From positions 27,714,001 to 27,778,000 of the forward strand of contig OX597825.1 in NCBI GenBank assembly GCA_951406725.2: 64,000 bases of DNA, in the 5' to 3' direction. The translations under genes were made by a program, and so were the position numbers. Of the stretch, positions 1,102 to 61,504 are shown in pieces. Origin of the DNA: Octopus vulgaris (Eukaryota). Under the pieces are notes generated by a model, which saw nothing but the letters and a program-made list of their open reading frames with translations, searched no databases and was not told the DNA's origin. Positions within the stretch are counted from its first letter, which is position 1; each line of letters starts with the position of its first letter.

Positions 1102-1160
<59 letters not shown>

Positions 1161-1246
1161 GTAGGTCCCGGGTTGATTCGGGGTTAACCACAGTAAGTAA
1201 GGTACTCAATACATAGCAGAGTAAAATTAATTTATTATATAGAAGG

Positions 1247-1297
1247 AGCTTCTACAGGACTAGTACTGTTTCATTCAAGAGAAATCTTCAGGAAGCT
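1247..1297 (-). ncRNA. Type I hammerhead ribozyme (minus-strand copy)
   Basis: Reverse complement of 3150-3200: AGCTTC-CTGAAGA-T(TTC tctt GAA)T-GAA-ACAG tactagtc CTGT-A-GAAGCT. Confidence 0.8.
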
Positions 1298-1738
1298 ATT
1301 TAACAAGAATTGTATTAGCATTTATACATTTAGGCAGGTTTAAAGGAGTGGTGGTGGGGGACTTTTTGGGGGTAGGCATAGCGCAAAATATCATACTTGG
1401 GGGAGTGGTCAAGGAGTCAGTGGTAAGTTAGATGAAAGAATAGATAAATAAAAAAATAAAAAAATAAAAAATAAAAAAATAAAAAAATATAAAAAAATAA
1501 AATAAAAAATAAAAAAATAAAAAAATAAAAAATATAAAAAATATATATAAAAAAATATATATAAAAAAATTTTGTATGCGTATAAATGCATGTAAGTATG
1601 GATGTATGGATGTATGTATGTATGTATACGTATGTATGTGTGTATGTGTGTATGTATATATATATGTGTGTATATGTGTTTGTGTATGTATATATATGTG
1701 TATGTATGTGTGTGTATATGTATGTGTGTATGTGTATG

Positions 1739-1800
<62 letters not shown>

Positions 1801-2049
1801 TATGTATCTGTATGTAGGAGTATATATGTGTGTGTGTGTATGTATATGCGGGTATATATATATATATGTATATTTATTGGTGTATATGTATAGACTAGCC
1901 TCCTAAAGTGTAGACACGAATCTGTAGGTACGAGTACGTATGTGTATATACGTGAACGTATGTAGATGTTTGTATGTATGAATATAACGCGTGCGTACGT
2001 GTATGTGTATGAGTGTACGAATGGGTGAATGTACGTGCTAATGAGTGTG

Positions 2050-2141
2050 CGTGCGGGAATGAGTACTTGCCTTCTAGTAGACAGACAAATGGACATGCAG
2101 CCATTGCCAGGATTCTTAGCCCTAGCGATCAAAGATAACAA
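2050..2141 (-). pseudogene. Possible remnant of the Penelope-like ORF C-terminus (Cys motif after the GIY-YIG domain)
   Basis: Two minus frames give LSLIARAKNPGNGC and CLLEGKYSF. This resembles the I..RA.PY..G...C.LCL.EK..I end of PLE ORFs. It lies upstream of the tail-bearing arm on the same strand. Confidence 0.4.
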
Positions 2142-2680
2142 AAGTAATAAATGAAGATAATAAAATTAAAATTAGGGAATGGGCCTGTATTGGATTGTAT
2201 ATATATATATGTATATGTATATTTGTATGTATGTATGTGTGTATGTGTAGGTATGTATAGGTACACATGTGTATGTGTATGTGTATGTATATATGTGTGT
2301 ATGTATGTATGTGCACACATGTATATATATGTATGCGTGTATATGTTTATATATATATATGTGTACATAGGTGTATGTGGGTGTATGTATATATAGGTGT
2401 AAATATGTGTATATAGGGAACTAGGTGTGTTGTGTGTGCATGAGTGTATGTGCGTATGAATATATATTTTTATGTGTATATATGTATGTGTGGTCGTGGG
2501 TATATATATATATATATATATATACATGTGTGTATGCGTGCATGCATGGGAGTGAGTGTATGCATATATACGTGTGTGTATGTGTAGACAGGTATAGGCA
2601 TGTGCATGTGTATAAATTTGTATATGTGGGCGGGTGTATGTATGTGTGTATGTAGATATGTATGTATGTGTGTACATATG

Positions 2681-2720
<40 letters not shown>

Positions 2721-3149
2721 TATGTGTGTGTGTATATATATGTGTATGTATGTATGTGTGTGTAGATACGTATACATGTGTGTATAGGTATAAGTGAGAA
2801 TCTCCTTATTTACCTATAACTCTATCCCCCCTTTTTTTATATATATATTTTTTTATATATATATTTTATATATATATTTTTTTATATATATTTTTTTATA
2901 TATATTTTTTATATTTTTTATTTTTTTATTTTTTTATTTTTATTTTATTTTTTTATATTTTTTTATTTTTTTATTTTTTGTATTTTTTTATTTTTTTATT
3001 TATCTATTCTTTCATCTAACTTACCACTGACTCCTTGACCACTCCCCCAAGTATGATATTTTGCGCTATGCCTACCCCCAAAAAGTCCCCCACCACCACT
3101 CCTTTAAACCTGCCTAAATGTATAAATGCTAATACAATTCTTGTTAAAT

Positions 3150-3200
3150 AGCTTCCTGAAGATTTCTCTTGAATGAAACAGTACTAGTCCTGTAGAAGCT
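3150..3200 (+). ncRNA. Type I hammerhead ribozyme
   Basis: Helix I AGCTTC(3150-55)/GAAGCT(3195-3200); core CTGAAGA 3156-62; short helix II TTC/GAA; GAAAC 3175-79; helix III ACAG/CTGT with a palindromic ACTAGT in the loop; GUA cleavage triplet, cut predicted after 3194. Confidence 0.82.
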
Positions 3201-3214
3201 CCTTCTATATAATA

Positions 3215-3256
<42 letters not shown>

Positions 3257-3257
<1 letters not shown>

Positions 3258-3403
3258 ACGACGAGATTCTCAGTTTTTCTGTACCAAATCCACTCACAAG
3301 GCTTTGGTCGACCCGAGGCCATAATAGAAGGTGCCACACGGTGGGGTTGAACGCAGAACCATGTACTTGCGAAGCAGCTTCTTACCACTCAGCCGTGCCT
3401 GCG

Positions 3404-6347: not shown

Positions 6348-7106
6348 ATCTATGTAAATATGCACATAAACTTTTACTCTGCTAGTTTCAATGTCCATAC
6401 ATGCCATATTAAATCTGTGATTTGCGTCTCTCCTGCATATTAAGAGACAACTTCCTATCGTACCAAATAGTGACCCACGTTTGACTATCTGATAAAGAAT
6501 TTTGAAGTAAGTTCTCTGTCATATAGGACGGTGTCTATATTGCAGTGGCCGGCCAATAAGGGGACATGTGGTGTTACCTCTGAATTAGCATCCCGTTTAT
6601 GAGTCACATGTGGGCCATCTACTAAAATGTCTTTATATTGGTTTCACAGCTAAAATAAGTTCTTAAAGAGTGTATGTTAAGTAATCTATGAAGGTTATTT
6701 GCACGGAGAAATATTTTATCAAATAGGCCGTGGGGATTAAGAGATTTCGAAGTGTTGGCCTGGTACTTCGTATGCGTATCTAGGTATGTAGACATTCGCC
6801 TCCTTCAATATTGCCAAAGCATCGTCTCTGTGCCAACTCTAGTTGAGGGGAATTTGTGATTGGCTAAATTCAGCCCCAAAAGATGATAGTTATTTGACCA
6901 TCGGCCCCGTCGTAGGCACTCATAGCTACTTCAAAATCTCTATGGTGGTTGCGTAGATGTATTTCTACATATCAGAATATAAGACCAATGTGCAAGGGTA
7001 AAACTGCATTGAGGACAGGTTTCGAAAATTCAATGAAGAAATGAATGTTAGTATGTGTTACATGGTATCATATTGTACTGAGAGTTATGTTTACATTTAT
7101 ACATAT

Positions 7107-7510
7107 ACTCTTTTACTCTTTTACTTGTTTCAGTCATTTGACTGCGGCCATGCTGGAGCACCGCCTTTTAGTCGAGCAAATCGACCCCGGGACTTATTTT
7201 GTGTAAGCCCAGTACTTATTCTATCGGTCGCTTTTGCCGAACCGCTATGTGACGGGGACGTAAACACACCAGCATCGGTTGTCAAGCAATGCTAGAGGGA
7301 CAAACACAGACACACAAACACATTCACACACACATATATATATACATATATACGACAGGCTTCTTTCAGTTTCCGTGTACCAAATCCACTCACAAGGCAT
7401 TGGTCGGCCCGGGGCTATAGCAGAAGACACTTGCCCAAGATGTCACGCAGTGGGACTGAACCTGGAACCATGTGGTTGGTTAGCAAGCTACTTACCACAC
7501 AGCCACTCCT
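7107..7510 (-). mobile_element. tRNA-derived SINE family A, near full length (CORE-like centre, internal (TG)n, LINE-derived tail)
   Basis: Head aggagtggctgtgtggtaag...ggttcagtcc; centre cttgggcaagtgtctt; tail ggcggtgctccagcatggccgcagtcaaatgactgaaacaagtaaaagagtaaaagag. Several copies in the window. Confidence 0.9.
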
Positions 7511-14143: not shown

Positions 14144-14690
14144 ATTTGGCTCAAAAGCAAATAGCAAGGCCATGTAGGGAGACATGGAGTTAAGTACAGG
14201 GTGGTGTTCATGTAAAGAGTTCAGGCCACTTGAGGTCCAGGGAGGCTTTGAACAAAGCGGTCGTCGGCATCTTCACCATCTCGTCTGGCAGCTTGTTCCA
14301 CGGATCCGCAACCCGGACGGAGAAAGCTCCTCTCCTTCGATTGAGATGAAATCGTCGCAGGTAGAGCTTTTCGGAATGACGCCGCAGCTCTTTCGAGAGG
14401 TTACACTTCCCGCTTATGATGTTGTGGGCGAGAATGAGATCACCACGGCGGCGGCGTTTTTCAAGAGAACAAAGGTCGAGCGTCCTCAGCCTTTCTTCGT
14501 AGGACAAATTTTTGAGACCATGAACCATGCGGGTAGCCAGCCTCTGGACTCTTTCGAGGTGCTGTATGTCTTTGAGGAGATAAGGAGAAGAGGCTTGAAT
14601 CCCATACTCCAATATGGGTCTCACCAGCGTGACATAGAGTGGCAGGAATATGGCTGCTGTGAGCATTCCGAATGACCGTCGAATCAAAAA
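14123..14690 (-). mobile_element. CR1/L2-group LINE 3' end (ORF2 C-terminus with (TAAC)n tail)
   Basis: ORF 14208-14687: LYVTLVRPILEYG..ASSPYLLKDIQHLERVQRLATRMV..LSYEERL..LEKRRRRGDLI..FSVRVADPWNKLP. Has a short 3' UTR, a (TAAC)n tail, and (TA)n flanks. Confidence 0.92.
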
Positions 14691-14692
14691 CA

Positions 14693-14743
<51 letters not shown>

Positions 14744-14760
14744 TATGTATATCTTACAAC

Positions 14761-22054: not shown

Positions 22055-22408
<354 letters not shown>

Positions 22409-23304
22409 TTATATATATATATACAGGTATAGAAAGGTACACACACACACGCACTTACACACATTTATACACTTGAGAGAAAGCGCTAAATTCGTTTGTT
22501 TGTTTTTTCTCCCATATTTGGGTTGTTAACATTAGTATTGTTTTTATATTTTCTGTCATTTGATTTCGTTATTATTGTACTATATTTCGTGATTGTTCAT
22601 TTTTTTAACTGCCCCTTCTTTCTTTGTATTATTTAAATTTAGGTTCTGTAGAACATCAATCGTGTATTTTCTTTATTATTACATTTGATTCAAGATTGTA
22701 GAGACTAATTATGAGACCTTTATACAAAATGCAATTTGGCTACCTTTTTTTTTTTTTTTTTTTTACGAATCGTCTTGGTTTATGGATTGAGACAAATGTG
22801 ATCCTACTTTTTCTGTTTGTTTTCCCACATTTTTTTTAATGTTTATTTGGATGCTGCGATTCCATCATTTTTCAAAGCTTCATAATATTCTTTTTCCTTT
22901 GTGTGTGTTTGTGTATATCATTGATTTTGTTATTGTTAAGTTTGTTGTTCTGAGCAGGGAGGCAGAGCAGCAATTGCTTTTGTTGTTATTGGTCTGTCTA
23001 AGAGTTCGTGATCTTGATGGTCTTTGCCTTTCTGTTCTTGGTCTCCGTTACAATGTTTTCTTGTTGTTCCTATTGATTAATATTTAACCTTCAGTGATAT
23101 TGATAACTTTAGTCTCACCAAGTATTTTATTCATTCATTTATTTTATTTCGAACTTTTATGCTGACTATTCTGTCTATAATACATTTGAAATTTTTAAAA
23201 GGTTCACCGTTTTGCTCTACATTCCTTTAGCAGTTCTGTTACCCTGCAACTAAGTTTAATGAATAAAAGTTATATGAAAACAAGGCAGAAAATGCACGAA
23301 TGAT

Positions 23305-23884
23305 GGCGGCGAGCTGACAGAAACGTTAGCGCGCCGGGCGAAATGCTTAGCGGTATGTCGTCTGCCGTTACGTTTCCAATTCCGCCGAGGTCGACTTTGC
23401 TTTTTAACTTTTTCGGGGACGGTAAATAAAGTACTAGTTACGCACTTATATATAACCGTCTTAATCCGTTTGTCTGTCCTTGTTTGTCCCCTTTGTGTTT
23501 AGCCCCTTGTGGGTAGTAAAGAAATAGGTATTTCGTCTGCGGCTACGTTCAGACTTCAAATTCCGCCGACGTGGACTTTGCCTTTAATCCATTCGGGGTC
23601 GAAAAATTAAGGACCATTTACGGACTGGGATCGATATAATCGACTTAATCCGTTTGTCTGTCCTTGTTTGTCCTCTGTGTTTAGCCCCTTGTGGGTAGTA
23701 AAGAAATAGGTATTTTATCTGCGGTTACGTTCTGAGTTCAAATTGCGCCGAGGTCGACTTTTCCTTTCAACCTTGTTCAGGGTCAATAAATAAAGTACCT
23801 GTTACGCAGTGGGGTCGCTTTAATCCATTTTTTGTCCTTGTTTGTTCCCTCTATGTTTAGCCTCTTGTGAGCAATAAAGAAATA
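23305..23884 (+). mobile_element. Tandem trimer of SINE family B with an 18-bp target-site duplication
   Basis: Units 23305-23526, 23527-23708 and 23709-23884. TSD agaaaatgcacgaatgat at 23287-23304 and 23885-23902. Confidence 0.9.
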
Positions 23885-26442
23885 AGAAAATGCACGAATG
23901 ATATTATCTATTCATAAAAAATAGCCAACTTCCAAGTGTTAAAAAGTGTAATTTACGAATCTTCATTTGTATGTATACTGTTTTCTTAGTGTTACCATGC
24001 TAAAGATGAGTTATTACAATCATTAGAATAAAACACGGCTGGGATCAAGTTGTAATGAAATTAAGTTATCACAACAAAACATATTCGAAATCAGGTTTTG
24101 AGAACCATGACGATGGAATATGGGAATTGAGATGTGGAGAAAATTACTGGAATCTCCGGTTATTAGGTATGGAATAGTGAACATGTGTCTTTGGATGTTT
24201 AGTCATAATTATTTCGTCCCGTGAGAGACCGTGGAATGCAGTACTCTTAGAACACCAGATACAATGCTTAATGGTTTTACGTCAAATGCTCATACATATG
24301 GTCACGCACACGCTCACACACATGCACAGTCAAATGGTCTAACAGTTACTGGTTCCATTGATTCGCTTTTATGAAGCCTGCAAAATAGCAGCTGATGTAT
24401 TAGCATCGGTTGGATGGCATCTCAAAACGCAGTGAATCAGAACAAATAGCACACGCTAGGTTTTTACACCAGCAACAACACTATGATCCATGCATAAACA
24501 TATACGTGTGTGTGTGTACGTGTTTGTATGAATGTATGTCATCAGTGACGAAAAATCTAGCAAAACACTTTGCATCTCAAACTGTAATTACACTTTTATA
24601 GGTATAATTTTATTGTAAGAACGTGTTTTCACTGTCGATGTGTTGCTCAAATTTGTCTTTTTTATATCAATATCAAAACATCGTTGGCCGAATGTACGAA
24701 CATTTAAACCATGTCTATTTACCCAATGAAATTTGAGTACTAGTTGACGTGCATTTATTTAGAAAACACTGAAGATTATTCAACAGGCTCTAGATTAACA
24801 TGACGCTAAATATTACTCAATAGAAGAGAAATAATTTTATATACCGACGTTGTTAATGAGGAATAGATTATGAAATCATGTAGTGTTAGAACATGTTAAC
24901 CTATCAAGTCTTTCAGAAATTCTACATTGGACTGTCTCAACATTTCTTTTAGCTTTCAGTTATACTAATTTATAGAGAACGTTAGATAGATTCTACCAAA
25001 ACGAAAACTGTATTTATTGTCTGCTTTTAAATCCTTCTAAAGACATTACCAGTTTACAGGTGGTAATTCAACAGATGACTTGTCTAATAGGTGAAATCAA
25101 ATTAATAGGAACCATATTTATGGCATTTTTCTACTTACACTTTTATTGACTCACCATATTTTTCCTTCTCTCTGTATTTTGTTTAGCGCGGATTTTTCAA
25201 AGAAGCTTTAGCAATGCACTCAAGATATTTGCTGCAATGAAAGTTTCAAGAAAACTGTTGACACCCATTAGCGTTAAGTTGTTACGGTAGGCTTATACCA
25301 TCTACGGCTGGGATGACATTTTCATCTATACCGGTGGAATCGATGCTTGTAGCTAGCATGTGTAGAAATGCAAGGCTAAAGGACTCTTCTGGTTTATTTG
25401 TTTGCCTGTGTTCTATCAGGGGATTGAAACTAATTTTCATTTGTTCATTCAGCATTTCAATTTTCCTTTGGGGTTTCCAGTTAGTGATCAATTTCATTAA
25501 AACAATGGTCCTATTTTATGAGGCAATGAAGTCGATTCATTTTAGAATTTATAGAAAATTCTAGTATTCCTTTTTATGTTTTCTACAATCCTGGTTTCCC
25601 TTTCAGTTCCCGGTCTTTCATGAACGAGTTTTATTTTATTCTCGATTTATAAGACTGTCAATTTTAAAGTGAGTTATATTACTGGTGGAAATGTGTAAAT
25701 TTAAACGATTTCTGTTTCATGTCATTGTCTTGCATACACCGATCTCCAGGGCAATTCTGTCAGTAAATAGCTGTTTGAATTTATTTCCAGTCAACCTTAT
25801 GGAAATTCAAGTTCGTTAGAGTTCCAGTGTTCCTTGTAGCGCGTATATCTGCAAGATCCTTTGGGTTACTCGTTGTTAATTCCTGTTTGCATTGTTTAGT
25901 GAACACCCAGCTTACTCCTTCGTTTTGTATATGAGTCTGTCTTATATATTCGTAAAATAGATAACTTAAAGTATTGTTTAATTCAAGATTAATTGAGAAT
26001 TCGAGATTTTACTTGATACTTTTCGAATTCCTAGAAGAAATTTTTTCTCATTGTTCATAGGCTACTCACCCATTCTCCACAAATATCGTAAATACCTACC
26101 ATTTCGAATATTTCAGCTACATGTCATAGCGTTACACAAAATTCAGGTTAGTGTAAGTGTTGCGTTGTATATGGGTGCGTGTATGGGTGACCAGATTGCG
26201 AGCGTGTGTGTGTGAGACAAATCAGGATGTAGACAAGATTACAAGTAATAAAAGATAATGAAAGTGGACAAGCTAACTAGCTGATGATCAACAATTGAAC
26301 AGATATCCTAACGCTGCATATAATTTCCAGTAATTCATCACATACTTGGTAGACATTCACCAGTTAAATTTCCAAGGATGGAAAATTGAGAATTAATAAT
26401 AATAAATAAGAAGAAAAAGAAGGAAAGTAGTAGTAGTAGTAT

Positions 26443-31710: not shown

Positions 31711-32090
31711 GTGGCTGTGTAGTGAGAAGCTTGCTTCTCAACCACATGGTTTCGGGTTCAATCCTACTGCGCGCCAACTTGCGAGAGTGTTTTCTACTAT
31801 ACCCTCGGGCCGACCAAAGCATTGTGAGTGGATTTGGTAGAAGGAAAATGGAAGAAAAGGAAAAGTATATATATGTCTGTGTGTGTGTGTATGTGTATTT
31901 GTGTGTCTGTGTCTGCCACCCCTCCCAACCATCGCTTGACAAGTGATGTCGGTATATTTACGTCCAGAACTACCGGTTCGGCTAAAGATACTGGTAGGAT
32001 AATACTACGCTTACAAAGAATAAAACCTGGAGTCGATTTGTTTGACTAATGACGCTGCCCCAGCACAGCTGTAGTAAACTGACTGAAACA
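31711..32090 (+). mobile_element. SINE family A, diverged copy
   Basis: Colinear with the reverse complement of 7107-7510. Confidence 0.85.
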
Positions 32091-36780: not shown

Positions 36781-38144
36781 TAAAGAAAAAATAGCAAAGA
36801 CTACTAACGAGACTTGGGAAGCGACTACGAAGAATACGGAGAATAAGAATCAATGCATGAATAACAGAATAAAGTATTTCATCGCGATAAGGGTCTAGCA
36901 ATTCCATGAGCATATTGCAGAATTAAGATATGGTTTAAAACCACATCTGATCCTTCCGGGCAACCATTATATTCACTCATCCTTTTATTGTGGTGTCATT
37001 AATTTTCAGCCTAATTTCCCACAAAGCATTTTGTTGTTTTAATTTTTTTTCTCCTTATTGTTCAGAAGTGGTGTCCTCTTTCTTCACATCTTAATCTCTT
37101 TCAAGTTCAGTTTTAAAAACAAAAATAAATAAATAACATAAAATAAAATGAATGGAAATAAATAAATAAATAAATAAATAAATATTAAAAACTGAAATCG
37201 GAAGCCTTCATTGAACCTGAATTCTTTTTTTTACGTATTTTATTTTAAACATTTGTCTTTTGTTATATTTGTAAAATGAAGCATGACCGGTTTCACATGG
37301 TCAGTTTTCTTGTAATGAGCTGTTTATTCGAATGTCAAAGGGTTACTCTTAATATCTCAACCAAAGACTTGCTGCTGATAATTTTGTGGGAAACTCACAG
37401 TTCTATATGTATGTGTACGCTTTCGTTAGTAAAAAGTGCATGTGTGTGTTTGTGTGTCTATCTGTATGCTTGTGTGTGCCTTTGTATCTTTCCCTGTGCG
37501 TACGTGTGCGTATTGCTTCTACTTTATAATTTGTTTTTGTTTAATAATATTGATCAAATTGAAAGCTATCTTAGAATCTAAATTCGAATATCAACGAAAT
37601 GATAAGGCATCTGGCAATTTTATTGCGTCATTACTGAACACCTCAAAAATTCCTTGATTGTGATATTCCATTCCGGTCTTTATTCTACGTTTATTTATTT
37701 TGTTCTTCTTTTCTTTATACAGATATAAAAAATAAAGAAATAAAATAACACATACACTGACGTATACAAGTAAACTTGACTCTCGGAACAAACAGCACAT
37801 TGTACATCGGCTAGCCCGTTTGCCCCCTCCCCCCATGTGTTCGTATCAACTGCCGGAAATAGCAGCGAAAGGAACGTTCGAATCATGTTCTGCCAGTCGT
37901 AGAACTGAACTAAAATTTAATAACAAATGATGTATTTGATATTTTAAATTACAATAAGGAAATGGCGTTGGTCATTGATTTTCTTAGCTTAAGGTTGGAC
38001 AATGCGTATATTTTTTCATATACGGAGGTAAACAGCGTGTAATCATTAGAGTAATTAGAAATAAATACACACTTTTTCAAATATCCCACAACAATGAGAG
38101 AGAACACATTAAAAGAGAGAGAGAGAACATATTAAAAAAATAGT

Positions 38145-38374
38145 TATTTCTTTATTGCCCACAAGGGGCTAAACATAGAGGAGACAAACAAAGACAGACA
38201 AAGGGATTAAGTCGATTACATCGACTCCAGTGCGTAACAGGTACTTTATTTATCGACCCCGAAAGGATGAAAGGCAAATTCGACCTCGGCGGAATTTGAT
38301 CTCAGAACGTAACGGCAGACGAAATACTGCTACGCTTTTCGCCCGGCATGCTAACGATTCTGCCAGCTCGCCGC
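38145..38374 (-). mobile_element. SINE family B, full length
   Basis: Colinear with 22190-22408. A more degraded copy follows at ~38480-38645. Confidence 0.9.
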
Positions 38375-38737
38375 TTAAAATATAATCTCAGAAAAATCAT
38401 TCTGAAAATCATAAAAATAACAATGTCATAGATGCAATACACTTGATTACAGGGTGGGCAGTTTTTCAGGGAAAGGGGAATTGAATACATCGATTCCAGT
38501 ATTTGACTGTTAAGCATTCCATTGACCGCGAGCAGTTATGAAAAATAAAGTGGTTCTCGGTGGTATTTGATGTCAGAACAAAATGACACGAATTGCCGCT
38601 AAGCATTTTCGGCGGCGTGTGAACGATTCTATCAGCTCACCGTCTTTATACTATTGTTATATTTTGGGTGCGAAATAAACACATGTACTATATATTCGTT
38701 CTTCACGTGACTATTACTGTTCTTGTCTTATGTCTTT

Positions 38738-56262: not shown

Positions 56263-57797
56263 CTTACATTTACGTATGTGCATGTGTATATGTATTATTT
56301 TTGGTGGTGGGGAACTGCATAATTATAATTATATAATTATAAACTTATTTTATTGTTACACAATACTCATCAAAATAAAAATAGTGATGGATATTTTGAA
56401 ATAACTGTTATTTTTGCTTTCTATTTCTTTAAATGTATTTTCCTTTGTGTGTGCTCTATTCCTCATATGTGCAACGTTTTTCAAAGATATACATTTTATA
56501 TATGGATTCGAAGAATTTACAGAGTTGTACTATATTAAGCCTTCATAGATCCGGTTATTTGTCGTGCTTATGCAGCATGTCATACATTTGAGTACTTGTT
56601 CCCGTTGGGTGGAGCTCTTTCAAAAACTAAACAATATTATGCGTGTGAGAATGTGTATGTGTGTGAGTGTCTATAAGTGTGAAAGTACATAACTTAAGAT
56701 CTGTATCATTTTAATTGTATATTCCGAAGGAAACTATTTCTAGCCGTAAATGACCTTTTACTTATTTCTTTTTTAATCCTCGTGAATATTCTTACCAGTG
56801 ATAGTTTGGATTTATTTTATTCTCTAGATGTTGCCAATATTATCTCAGATATTCTCTCGTCATCTTGGCAAACATATGAATATTTCACCATCACTAACAT
56901 ATGTTAGATGAAAAAAATAATAAAAACAGTGCAAAATATAGAAATATACATAAATAAAAGGCACCGACGACAGAAAAGGAAAAAAAAAATTAATGTTAGT
57001 GGCTGTAGTGGTTGGATATATGAAACTATTCAAAGAAGAAAATATGAAAAGATAAATAGTGGAAGACCGAACAACGGAAAAAGAAAAAAATGAAAGAATG
57101 AAGAAAGATGGTGAAGAAAGAAAAGAGGCAGAAAGAACGGATGAAAATGAACAGATGAAAGGAATAACGATGGAATTGAAATAAGCATATGCCGAATAAA
57201 TTTGATGAAACTAGGGAGTTCATATTGCTTCCAGTAACATGGCATACGCCAGAACAAAAGGAATAAAAATTGGTATCGATAGAGCTCGGATTGAATCATA
57301 AAAACTACTTGTTATTCTAGAAATCTAGTTTGATGCCAGGCGAATTATCAACAGAAAGAAAAGAAAGATGTCTGCAAGAAGTAGTGATCATTTGCTAATG
57401 TTATGTTACTCGAACATGCTGTTGTACACAGAAATTAAAGTAGATACACTTCTCTTGAAAAGTTTCTTTTCATGCTTGTTTTATTTACTGTGGCCTATTT
57501 ATTACCTGAAATCAAACATTCATTGTAATATTTATACCTTTGCCATGTTATATGATATATTTACCAAAACTTTTGACCGGATTCCATGAGTCATTTTATC
57601 CTGTTCTTACGTGTCTGCCTCTGTGCGAATGTGTTGGTGTGTTTGTTGAAGACATTGTTATACAATGCATCGTTAATTAGAACGGTTTTAAATTTCCTTA
57701 TCTTCGAATTTATAGCATATTTCAATACACGGTTATTCTCCAAGAAACAATAATAATATTTGCAATTATATTTTCTCAGAATTAGACAGTACGCATT

Positions 57798-58210
57798 AAG
57801 GCGGCGAGCTTGCAGAAACGTTAGCACGCCGGGCGAAATGCGTAGCCGTATTTCGTCTGCCGTTACCTTCTGAGTTCAAATTCCGCCGAGGTCGACTTCA
57901 CCTGTCATCCTTTCGGGGTCGATAAATTAAGTACCAGCTTACGTACTGTGGTCGATCTAATCGACTTAATCCCTTTGTCTGTCCTTCTTTGTCCCCTCCA
58001 TGTTTAGCCCGTTGTGGGCAATAAAAAAAAAGAAGAATCGTTAGAATGCCGGGTAAAATGCTTCGCGGCATATAGTCCGTCTTTACGTCTAAAGCTAAAA
58101 ATCCGCAGAGTTCTACTTTGCCTTTCATCCTTTCAGGGTCAATAAATTAAGTACCAGTTGGATACTGAGGTCGATGTAATCATCTTTCCCACTACATCGA
58201 AATTGCTGGT
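57798..58210 (+). mobile_element. SINE family B followed directly by a second diverged unit
   Basis: Full unit 57798-~58030. A second unit starts at ~58033 (gaagaatcgttagaatgccggg...ctttgcctttcatcctttcagggtcaataaattaagtaccagtt). Confidence 0.85.
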
Positions 58211-58872: not shown

Positions 58873-58979
58873 GAAATTCGGGGTGAGTACTTGATAATTA
58901 TAAGCACCTGTGTATACCGTTTGGTGGTGTAGGTGGTGGAGTAAATTGATCAAAATAAAAACATGATGCCAAGGATTCA

Positions 58980-59057
58980 GCGGTACATATGTTTCGGGCC
59001 TTTATTAGACAGATTTATAACAATGCATAATGTATGTCTGTGGCCTTCTTCAGCCGC
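58980..59057 (-). ncRNA. Type I hammerhead ribozyme (minus-strand copy)
   Basis: Reverse complement of 59209-59286. Confidence 0.8.
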
Positions 59058-59208
59058 GCACAACAGCTTCCACAAGGACATGTGTTACATCAAAAATTCT
59101 TGGTTGGGGATGCAAATCCTCTCATTCGCGTACGACATAATGCGGCAACAGCATAGAGTTGAAGCGTCCATCTCTTTCTTCTCTCAGTCCTTGTGGAAGC
59201 TGTTGTGC

Positions 59209-59286
59209 GCGGCTGAAGAAGGCCACAGACATACATTATGCATTGTTATAAATCTGTCTAATAAAGGCCCGAAACATATGTACCGC
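59209..59286 (+). ncRNA. Type I hammerhead ribozyme with extended helix II
   Basis: Helix I GCGG/CCGC; CTGAAGA 59213-19; helix II GGCC..ACAGA...TCTGT..GGCC; GAAAC 59271-75; palindromic ACATATGT helix III; GUA triplet, cut predicted after 59282. Confidence 0.82.
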
Positions 59287-59316
59287 TGAATCCTTGGCAT
59301 CATGCTTTTATTTTGA

Positions 59317-59369
<53 letters not shown>

Positions 59370-61067: not shown

Positions 61068-61504
61068 CGGTACATCATTTGTACGATGTGGAGAATATAC
61101 CGCCAACATTGCCCAAACGACCTTAACATTAGCTTCAAGGTTCATCCAAGACTGGGACCACGGGCCATACGTCCCCTGTCCAATTCAAGATCACAGCATA
61201 CATGTACACTGCAACATAATTTCTTTTCATCAACAGGCCCTGCCCTATTTAACATTGTCCCGAGGGAGATCAAAGAGGAAAAGGATCCCATCAACTTTAA
61301 ACGGAGTCTGGAAAGATTCCTTCAAAGAATACCAGATAAGCCACCCATAATTGGATACAACTCACCCAACAAGAACTCACTACTTGAATGTACCATACAC
61401 AAAACTTGACTTAAACAGGATTCGAATAATCCTATCAAGTGGTGCTATTAAGTTAGACATCGCCTGGACCAATCTTTGGTCGAAACATATCTAAGTGTTA
61501 TCTA

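What the first reader, a model, noticed from the sequence alone, without database searches (positions are those of the whole stretch)
1161..3216. Young 2-kb element with mirror-image hammerheads and a possible GIY-YIG C-terminal remnant
About 220 bp of unique arm sequence appears identical between the two arms, which suggests recent insertion or conversion. Each arm has the ribozyme followed ~10 nt later by AATAAA. Helix III is a real 4-bp stem with a palindromic loop, so monomeric or dimeric cleavage is possible, while helix II starts with a U-U mismatch. The interior is mostly TG/TA low-complexity sequence with a short PLE-like Cys motif (2050-2141) on the tail-bearing strand.
Basis: partly seen in the sequence, partly recalled or inferred. 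Interest (0 to 1): 0.75.

Follow-up and report, generated by a model that had tools for sequence, protein, structure and literature searches.

The report
Head-to-head Penelope insertion with start hairpin
The 2-kb stretch has two identical mirror-image ends, each with a hammerhead ribozyme motif, and is likely a recent, protein-less insertion of a known jumping-gene group (Hydra-clade Penelope-like elements); its one-sided tail holds a small hairpin that relatives carry twice and that likely marks where copying of the element starts.

Summary
The arms (1231-1570, 2876-3216) match at 339 of 342 columns with no substitution, each carries a type I hammerhead, and only the left has a 70-nt tail. 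This is the published insertion form of Penelope-like elements (PLEs): inverted 5'-truncated copy, junction palindrome, one-sided tail, (TA)n target.

The hammerhead and tail point to the Hydra clade. The GIY-YIG remnant is not supported: against a profile from 112 Hydra endonuclease ends it scores at the null median. The two ribozymes lie on opposite strands, so they cannot dimerise with each other in one transcript.

New here: the tail holds a bulged hairpin shared with Hydra-type PLEs of other animals; a model built without the window ranks it first (E 0.008). Five tandem junctions carry two such hairpins 62-68 nt apart before the ATG. Ten of 11 one-hairpin ends run into (TA)n 56-63 nt after it, and tail-less arms stop 5-8 nt before it. 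Reverse transcription therefore likely starts just 5' of either hairpin, which would explain the PLE tail; this is untested. The origin of the 1.2-kb interior is unresolved.

The parts
1105..1160 (.). Left flank, host (AC)n(AT)n run: target site
   Evidence: sequence; TRF
1161..1230 (-). 70-nt tail, on this arm only; ends 62 nt after the hairpin start, directly on (AT)n
1202..1222 (-). Bulged tail hairpin H1 (4-bp outer stem, 2-nt 3' bulge, 3-bp inner stem, followed by AC); outer G-C pair of relatives is A-U here
1247..1297 (-). Type I hammerhead, left arm; predicted cleavage after 1253
1231..1570 (-). Left arm (pLTR-like 3' end: T-rich tract, C-rich unique part, hammerhead, AT-rich patch)
1571..2799 (-). 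Interior spacer, CA/TA-rich on the element's sense strand; no coding homology found; origin unresolved
2050..2141 (-). Cys-containing peptide with a loose likeness to the Hydra endonuclease CxxC; not above chance
2783..2818 (.). Imperfect palindrome at the head-to-head junction, centre about 2800
2801..2875 (+). 5' extension of the right arm not matched in the left arm: 31 unique nt plus extra T-tract units
2876..3216 (+). Right arm, inverted tail-less copy; ends 8 nt before the position of hairpin H1
3150..3200 (+). Type I hammerhead, right arm; predicted cleavage after 3194
3211..3216 (+). AATAAA hexamer at the end of the tail-less arm
   Evidence: sequence
3217..3257 (.). Right flank, (TA)n(GT)n run: target site; no target duplication can be read

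Best explanation
This is likely a single, recent, non-coding insertion made by a Hydra-clade Penelope-like retrotransposon: two copies of the element's hammerhead-bearing 3' end sit head to head in a (TA)n run, and the one-sided tail likely arose because reverse transcription started just 5' of one or the other of two hairpins in the element RNA. SHOWN: arm identity, both hammerhead motifs, tail on one arm, junction palindrome, (TA)n flanks, the tail hairpin, and in relatives two hairpins between hammerhead and ATG, with copy ends placed just 5' of a hairpin. INFERRED: a Hydra RT-endonuclease supplied in trans nicked the (TA)n run. cDNA primed at 1160 began just before the second hairpin (so it kept H1, giving the tail) and ran through the arm and the interior to about 2800. 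The inverted arm was then made as a second copy beginning just before H1 (tail-less), joined through the imperfect palindrome by fold-back or by annealing of two cDNA ends. The hammerhead is likely weak alone (3-bp helix II predicted at about 0.1) and would be masked by its antisense arm in a read-through transcript, so this copy is likely inert.
For: Architecture matches published PLE insertions point for point: inverted 5'-truncated copy, tail at one end, HHR in the pLTR, (TA)n bias (Craig 2021); palindromes at inverted junctions and captured spacers next to pLTRs (Arkhipova 2013); hammerhead pairs 100-700 bp apart on opposite strands (Cervera 2014).
Hydra-type hammerhead: a U-U pair at the base of helix II in 14 of 25 Hydra families and the same helix III letters in 4 of them (supplement table, my count).
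A pattern built from these traits retrieved L077, a Hydra endonuclease ORF followed by such a hammerhead and the hairpin.
In 16 loci picked by Hydra protein alone, 11 have a hammerhead and 8 of those 11 have the hairpin behind at least one of them (5 strict, 3 relaxed). Background for the strict descriptor is 3 hits in 1.30 Mb of other loci and 3 in 3.84 Mb of Markov sequence.
A covariance model built without the window ranks 1196-1226(-) first in 128 kb: 20.7 bits, E 0.008, next 11.2 bits.
L173 holds two ORF-less head-to-head pairs with the tail on one arm only.
Two hairpins 62-68 nt apart precede the ATG in L141, L168, L169, L170 and L175. Ten of 11 one-hairpin ends meet (TA)n 56-63 nt after the hairpin start (per-position background 0.7-2.1%). 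Three tail-less arms stop 5-8 nt before H1.
Two RT start sites bounding the tail were shown in vitro for a Poseidon-clade PLE (Frangieh 2024).
Against: No RT or endonuclease is in the element, so clade membership rests on RNA motifs only. No whole genome was available: copy number, an autonomous partner, hairpin H2 of this family and the empty site were not seen. The U-U helix II base also occurs in axolotl retrozymes. The hairpin descriptor was first drawn by eye with the window's own variant included, and the pair counts come from sequences chosen for pairing, so they are partly circular; the position in protein-picked loci and the window-free model are the independent part. The 11 ends come from about 8 families, and several loci share one host. 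L176 has one hairpin and no clear (TA)n end. The tail is 70 nt, not the 30-40 nt reported for other PLEs. The 1.2-kb interior and the 31 unmatched nt at 2801-2831 are not explained by a simple truncated copy. The inner stem of the window's hairpin is not predicted stable on its own.
Confidence: 0.8

Rival explanations
1. Two independent insertions of a short, young, high-copy non-autonomous PLE end landed 1.2 kb apart in opposite orientation, and the interior is host microsatellite DNA.
For: The family looks high-copy and homogeneous. The arms differ upstream of the T-tract (2801-2875). The interior resembles host TG/TA repeats and has no coding homology.
Against: No other copy of the arm exists in the 64-kb window. 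The pair is head to head with the tail on one arm only, as in single insertions (L173). The irregular T-tract is shared almost letter for letter. A palindrome sits at the inner end of the right arm. The inner end of the left arm is not on a (TA)n run.
Confidence: 0.08
2. The minus-strand part is a decayed 5'-truncated autonomous copy, and 2050-2141 is the remnant of its GIY-YIG C-terminus.
For: 5 of the 7 best blastx rows for 2030-2160 fall on the Hydra CxxC stretch, on the element's sense strand. A later LISTxxH-like piece recalls the Hydra ELISxCRH motif.
Against: Best E is 0.61; 12 of 379 control tiles do as well on that stretch. The frameshift-tolerant profile score is at the null median, while L077 mutated at 30% still averages 75. 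The cysteine spacing and the E-K pair do not fit in one frame. The DNA upstream is microsatellite-like, not ORF. The motif lies about 760 nt from the hammerhead, against about 70-220 nt in relatives. A deeply decayed ORF sits oddly in a copy whose arms show no substitution.
Confidence: 0.1
3. It is a foldback or MITE-like DNA transposon with long terminal inverted repeats, or a retrozyme, and the hammerheads are passengers.
For: 340-nt inverted arms, no ORF, TA-rich target; retrozymes also carry type I hammerheads, some with a U-U helix II base.
Against: The ends are asymmetric (70-nt tail on one side). Retrozymes are direct tandem arrays of 150-450-bp units, and there is no tandem unit here. 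The tail hairpin and its 62-nt distance to the end match Hydra PLE ends.
Confidence: 0.03
4. The perfect arm identity comes from later gene conversion or from assembly polishing with reads of a high-copy repeat, so the insertion is older than it looks.
For: Inverted repeats can convert, and multi-copy repeats can be homogenised in polishing (general knowledge). The junction palindrome is imperfect.
Against: The flanking (TA)n runs are uninterrupted. Sequencing runs from three organism labels hold 0.77-1.00 of the arm's words, consistent with a young homogeneous family.
Confidence: 0.15

Closest known systems
Hydra clade of C-terminal EN+ Penelope-like elements (Craig et al. 2021, PMC8557442), e.g. 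Penelope-13_HM with an inverted 5'-truncated copy and a hammerhead on each strand
   Same: (TA)n target, type I hammerhead near the 3' end with U-U helix II base and the same helix III letters as several families, T-rich 3' region, inverted partner arm, conserved tail hairpin.
   Different: No ORF in this copy; 8-nt palindromic loop III instead of 1-3 nt; A-U instead of G-C closing the hairpin; 1.2-kb microsatellite-like interior. Its hammerhead differs from that of Hydra-1_Obim, the one cephalopod Hydra family listed, and short window strings were absent from that supplement.
Penelope insertions of Adineta vaga with inverted pLTRs, junction palindromes and captured spacers (Arkhipova et al. 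2013, PMC3846280)
   Same: Head-to-head arms, optional tail on one arm, palindrome at the inverted junction, unrelated DNA carried next to a pLTR.
   Different: Those belong to another PLE clade, have a 31-bp tail and often a readable target duplication.
PAc (Poseidon of Anolis carolinensis; Frangieh et al. 2024, PMC11167929)
   Same: Two reverse-transcription start sites bounding the tail, downstream of a hammerhead that needed protein to cut; both DNA strands nicked and extended.
   Different: In PAc the starts lie in an AC-rich stem loop inside the ORF. In the Hydra-type loci here two repeated bulged hairpins in the 5' UTR line up with the two ends.
Animal non-LTR retrozymes (Cervera and de la Pena 2020, PMC7229834; Li et al. 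2026, 10.64898/2026.07.22.740005)
   Same: Non-coding, type I hammerhead, proposed PLE derivation.
   Different: Retrozymes are direct tandem arrays able to form dimeric ribozymes and circular RNA; this is one inverted pair with the ribozymes on opposite strands.

Membership tests
EN+ Penelope-like element insertion | Inverted 5'-truncated copy adjacent to the main copy (head to head) | tested here: met
   arms point outward and join at about 2800
EN+ Penelope-like element insertion | Tail extension at one end only | tested here: met
   1161-1230; 70 nt rather than the 30-40 nt
EN+ Penelope-like element insertion | Type I hammerhead motif in the pLTR | tested here: met
EN+ Penelope-like element insertion | Palindrome at the inverted junction | tested here: met
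   2783-2818; imperfect
EN+ Penelope-like element insertion | Ribozyme self-cleavage | not testable with these tools
   folding only
Autonomous Hydra-clade PLE | RT plus C-terminal GIY-YIG ORF (RWK, DKT, CxCX5C, CxxC/CxH) | tested here: not met
   no such ORF or significant remnant in 1161-3216; this copy is not autonomous
Hydra-clade derivative (non-coding) | Insertion into (TA)n | tested here: met
Hydra-clade derivative (non-coding) | Hammerhead of the type tabulated for Hydra families | tested here: met
   one search compared; the U-U trait is not exclusive
Hydra-clade derivative (non-coding) | Tail hairpin shared with Hydra-ORF loci (feature found here, not a published criterion) | tested here: met
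Hydra-clade derivative (non-coding) | Same arm attached to a Hydra ORF elsewhere in the host genome | not testable with these tools
   no genome held; arm absent from the three contig collections
Non-LTR retrozyme | Direct tandem units, each with a hammerhead on the same strand | tested here: not met
MITE / foldback DNA transposon | Symmetric terminal inverted repeats reaching both ends | tested here: not met
   70-nt overhang on the left only

The most novel reading that the evidence does not exclude
Hydra-clade Penelope-like elements carry two copies of a conserved bulged hairpin in their 5' UTR, between the hammerhead and the ATG. Each hairpin positions a reverse transcriptase to start a few bases upstream of it, so the spacing of the hairpins sets the length of the PLE tail, and a protein dimer using both hairpins on both nicked strands builds the head-to-head, one-tailed insertion seen in this window.
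Probability: 0.55. Interest if true: 0.65.

Novelty: new member of a known kind. Interest (0 to 1): 0.48.

Why it matters
The element itself is an ordinary PLE insertion form, probably from a Hydra family not listed in the paper that defined the clade. What matters is the tail hairpin. How PLE tails and inverted ends form, and which RNA element the PLE reverse transcriptase (the closest retroelement kin of telomerase) recognises, are stated open questions (Craig 2021; Frangieh 2024). A 21-nt motif that is repeated twice and sits at a fixed distance from both kinds of end makes that question testable with point mutants. It also gives a short signature for assigning ORF-less insertions to the Hydra clade.

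Tried and rejected
Own-genome search: no genome held.

Rfam: no hit at gathering score; only microRNA-type low-complexity matches at E<=10. Exact arm patterns: 0 hits in metagenome, viral and prokaryote-genome contigs.

Cys peptide (minus frame 1992-2165): phmmer over 1.84 billion representatives gave 2 hits, both tandem-repeat artefacts. Homologue searches, longer and near lengths, gave none. ESM Atlas best score 0.80 with low recognition. Pfam none for three frames. Only this one frame was sent to the large searches; all six frames were covered by the local profile, tblastn, blastx and tblastx tests. The plus-strand Cys peptide (2013-2135) had no Pfam hit and lies on the antisense strand.

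Hammerhead pattern in viral contigs: 50 loci, only phage-type hammerheads and chance hits, no PLE. Hydra protein in viral contigs: none.

Whole-motif folding of 3140-3215 is not better than shuffles (z 0.07), so stability is no evidence for the ribozyme; the core and helix layout is. AATAAA as a conserved poly(A) signal was not supported. A target duplication cannot be read in (TA)n. Pfam and NCBIfam have no model hit for the Hydra proteins tried.

Full report
1. Observation. The window is AT-rich animal-like DNA dense in microsatellites. No whole genome is held. It looks to me like a cephalopod genome; that is a recalled resemblance and comes from no call. The arms 1231-1570 and 2876-3216 align at 339 of 342 columns with no mismatch, and the longest exact stretch is 236 nt. 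A scan of both strands of the whole window found two hammerhead motifs, one per arm, both pointing outward, with cleavage predicted after 3194 (+) and after 1253 (-). Only the left arm continues into a 70-nt tail. Both ends sit in (TA)n. No further copy of the arm is in the window. An imperfect palindrome lies at 2783-2818, and 2801-2875 has no counterpart in the left arm.

2. Age and copy number. Zero substitutions in 339 columns gives a 95% bound of 0.9%. With the calibration quoted for Octopus (JC 0.09 = 25 My; PMC13282606) this would be about 1.2 My or less, if the host is an octopus and there was no conversion. Of 24 listed runs, 20 hold 0.77-1.00 of the 22 sampled words of 1161-1430. They come from 9 studies and three organism labels; two may be the source of this DNA. 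Sets as small as 2-8 million letters hold 0.86-0.91.

3. Known architecture. Craig et al. 2021 (PMC8557442; passages, section 11, supplement parts 2, 52, 53, 58, 59 and searches) describe the inverted 5'-truncated copy, the one-sided tail and the (TA)n bias. They list Penelope-13_HM with a hammerhead on each strand. Cervera and de la Pena 2014 (PMC4209133; parts 1-2 of 4) report hammerhead pairs 100-700 bp apart on opposite strands and low in vitro activity. Arkhipova et al. 2013 (PMC3846280; passages) report palindromes at inverted junctions and host DNA captured next to pLTRs. Mirror-image hammerheads are therefore not new.

4. Which clade. In the Hydra hammerhead table I count a U-U pair at the base of helix II in 14 of 25 families, and the window's four helix III pairs in 4 families. 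The U-U trait also occurs in axolotl retrozymes (PMC7229834; passages), so it is only a pointer. Its homologues (255 found, best 120 used) carry CxxCxxE[KR] in 112 of 120. An alignment of 30 of them fetched 16 loci from prokaryote assemblies that evidently hold animal host DNA.

5. The GIY-YIG remnant. Seven tests gave no support: phmmer (2 repeat artefacts), two homologue searches, the Atlas, Pfam, an HMM of the Hydra C-terminus (no domain here) and a frameshift-tolerant profile. The profile gave 24.2; 338 of 556 chunks and 113 of 200 shuffles scored as high; the L077 control gave 402, and 158, 75 and 44 when mutated at 20, 30 and 40%. In its favour, 5 of the 7 best blastx rows fall on the CxxC stretch on the sense strand, but at E 0.61, matched by 12 of 379 control tiles. 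A very old or deleted remnant is not excluded (about 10%).

6. The tail hairpin. [quoted passage not shown] The window has it at 1222-1202 on the minus strand, 31 nt after the cleavage site, with an A-U pair in place of G-C. It is the only such match in the window (0.07 expected; the pattern included the window's variant). Independent tests follow. L077 and L141, fetched by the hammerhead pattern alone, have it. Of the 16 protein-picked loci, 11 have a hammerhead; 5 show the strict hairpin 41-57 nt behind it and 3 more a one-letter variant; in the other 3 (L174, L177, L180) the hammerheads run into AT-rich repeats without it; some hammerheads in these loci may belong to other PLE clades. Background was 3 hits in 1.30 Mb and 3 in 3.84 Mb. 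A covariance model from 10 locus hairpins, without the window, ranks the window's tail first: 20.7 bits, E 0.008 (rough calibration), next 11.2. It finds 8 further out-of-training hits at E<0.05 in 21 loci. Pair counts (66 of 66 cells paired, 3 of 6 pairs with two-sided change) are partly circular, as the rows were chosen for pairing.

7. Hairpins and ends. Five tandem junctions show hammerhead or copy start, hairpin 1, hairpin 2 about 62-68 nt later, then an ATG roughly 40-60 nt after the start of hairpin 2 opening a Hydra ORF: L141 (second hairpin read by eye), L168, L169 (first hairpin a weak hit), L170, L175. Eleven ends carry one hairpin; ten meet a (TA)3+ run 56-63 nt after its start (window 62), and L176 does not. 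The per-position background is 0.7% in those loci and 2.1% in the window. The eleven represent about 8 families, and several loci come from one assembly. In L169 the same family is seen both ways, and the tailed end stops about 4-5 nt before hairpin 2. In three head-to-head pairs (two in L173, and the window) the tail-less arm stops 5-8 nt before hairpin 1. So both kinds of end lie just 5' of a hairpin, and the tail is the interval between the two hairpins.

8. Mechanism. Frangieh et al. 2024 (PMC11167929; parts 1-2 of 4, passages, supplement text search without hits, figures not seen) showed for a Poseidon element two RT start sites bounding the tail, nicking and extension of both strands, a predicted dimer, and a hammerhead that cuts only with protein and is dispensable for insertion in vitro. 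I infer that in Hydra elements each hairpin places an RT a few bases upstream of itself, on an AT-rich patch that can meet a (TA)n primer. For this copy, the plus strand from 1161 to about 2800 is the first cDNA, started before hairpin 2. The inverted arm started before hairpin 1, and the two were joined at the palindrome, by fold-back (the reading of Arkhipova 2013) or by annealing of two cDNA ends. I cannot separate these two; the 31 unmatched nt show that the join was not a clean fold-back. One L173 pair that may be a single insertion has two tail-less ends, so one tail per pair is not a strict rule. The interior is either captured host sequence or the body of a non-autonomous family; it holds the two longest one-polarity TG tracts of the window, and no call could tell the two apart.

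9. The ribozyme. Helices I and III are predicted to form (0.7-1.0), but helix II is weak (0.11) and a competing register pairs into the core. Sequence up to 3215 adds a hairpin over the cleavage site that lowers helix I to about 0.45; in longer contexts the value ranges from 0 to 0.8. Loop III permits a dimer (-15.2 kcal/mol), but only between same-strand copies. In a read-through RNA the two arms would pair with each other. This copy is likely inert apart from possibly yielding a 340-bp double-stranded stem (inference).

10. Novelty. The element is a new member of a known kind, filed as a non-coding Hydra-type derivative on RNA evidence; the autonomous-ORF criterion is not met. I did not find the twin hairpins in print. 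Searches: (listings only, open-licence PMC and bioRxiv); 'hairpin' occurs 0 times in the main text of Craig 2021 and of Arkhipova 2013. Subscription journals, Repbase entries, figure S2C of Frangieh 2024, the supplement of PMC13282606 (listed, not read) and the supplements of the 2026 retrozyme preprint (part 1 of 5 read) were not seen and may bear on this. PMC8969392 (passages) treats inverted pLTRs and 3' extensions as routine. Earlier notes of this scan had nothing on this sequence, this genome or the Hydra hairpin; several on other genomes reach the same 'ordinary inverted PLE' verdict (unchecked).

Noticed in passing
window 6729-6368 (-): Old Hydra-type PLE protein remnant (linker before the endonuclease; best tblastn E 3.5e-4). 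A 13-nt match to the start of the tail lies at 6372-6384 (+) beside it, without the full hairpin.
   Followed up: partly
window 63114-62077 (-): Second old Hydra-type remnant: DKT region and RT thumb (HMM domain E 1e-4; blastx E 7e-5), split by microsatellites.
   Followed up: partly
window 3257-3394; 7351-7504; 31713-31839: Dispersed SINE-like repeat about 40 nt right of the element, with two diverged copies (71-72% identity).
   Followed up: no
window 58942-59324: About 390-nt imperfect palindrome (83%), MITE-like.
   Followed up: no
window 23296-23888; 22192-22409; 38138-38378; 57791-58181: Repeat family with a roughly 175-nt tandem unit and dispersed copies in both orientations.
   Followed up: no
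window 14208-14753 (-); 61068-61409 (+): Open frames that look like LINE C-terminal fragments (recalled resemblance; no significant Pfam hit).
   Followed up: partly
window 9876-9936/9996-10056; 45509-45586/45898-45975: Two short inverted pairs (61 nt at 95%; 78 nt at 81%).
   Followed up: no
L167-L182: Prokaryote genome records (MAGs and symbiont assemblies) contain contigs with Hydra-clade retrotransposons in (TA)n, evidently animal host contamination.
   Followed up: partly
L173 4597-4813 and 5286-5631: Tiny ORF-less head-to-head hammerhead pairs with a tail on one arm, nested in one another's (TA)n runs: miniature versions of the window's element.
   Followed up: yes
L058, L103, L124, L153, L156: Copies of the L077 family that begin almost exactly at the 5' strand of hammerhead helix I, several right after a TA-rich run.
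   Followed up: no
L129 170-202 and 971-1003; L059, L061, L088, L101, L149: A hammerhead-like motif repeated 801 nt apart on one strand in L129, with relatives in other loci; retrozyme-like or satellite.
   Followed up: no
L127 79-2865 on the hammerhead strand: 929-aa RT-like frame with no obvious endonuclease motif, followed by a hammerhead; possibly an EN-less PLE.
   Followed up: no
L014, L015, L024, L031, L032, L036, L040: Well-formed type I hammerheads in viral contigs.
   Followed up: no
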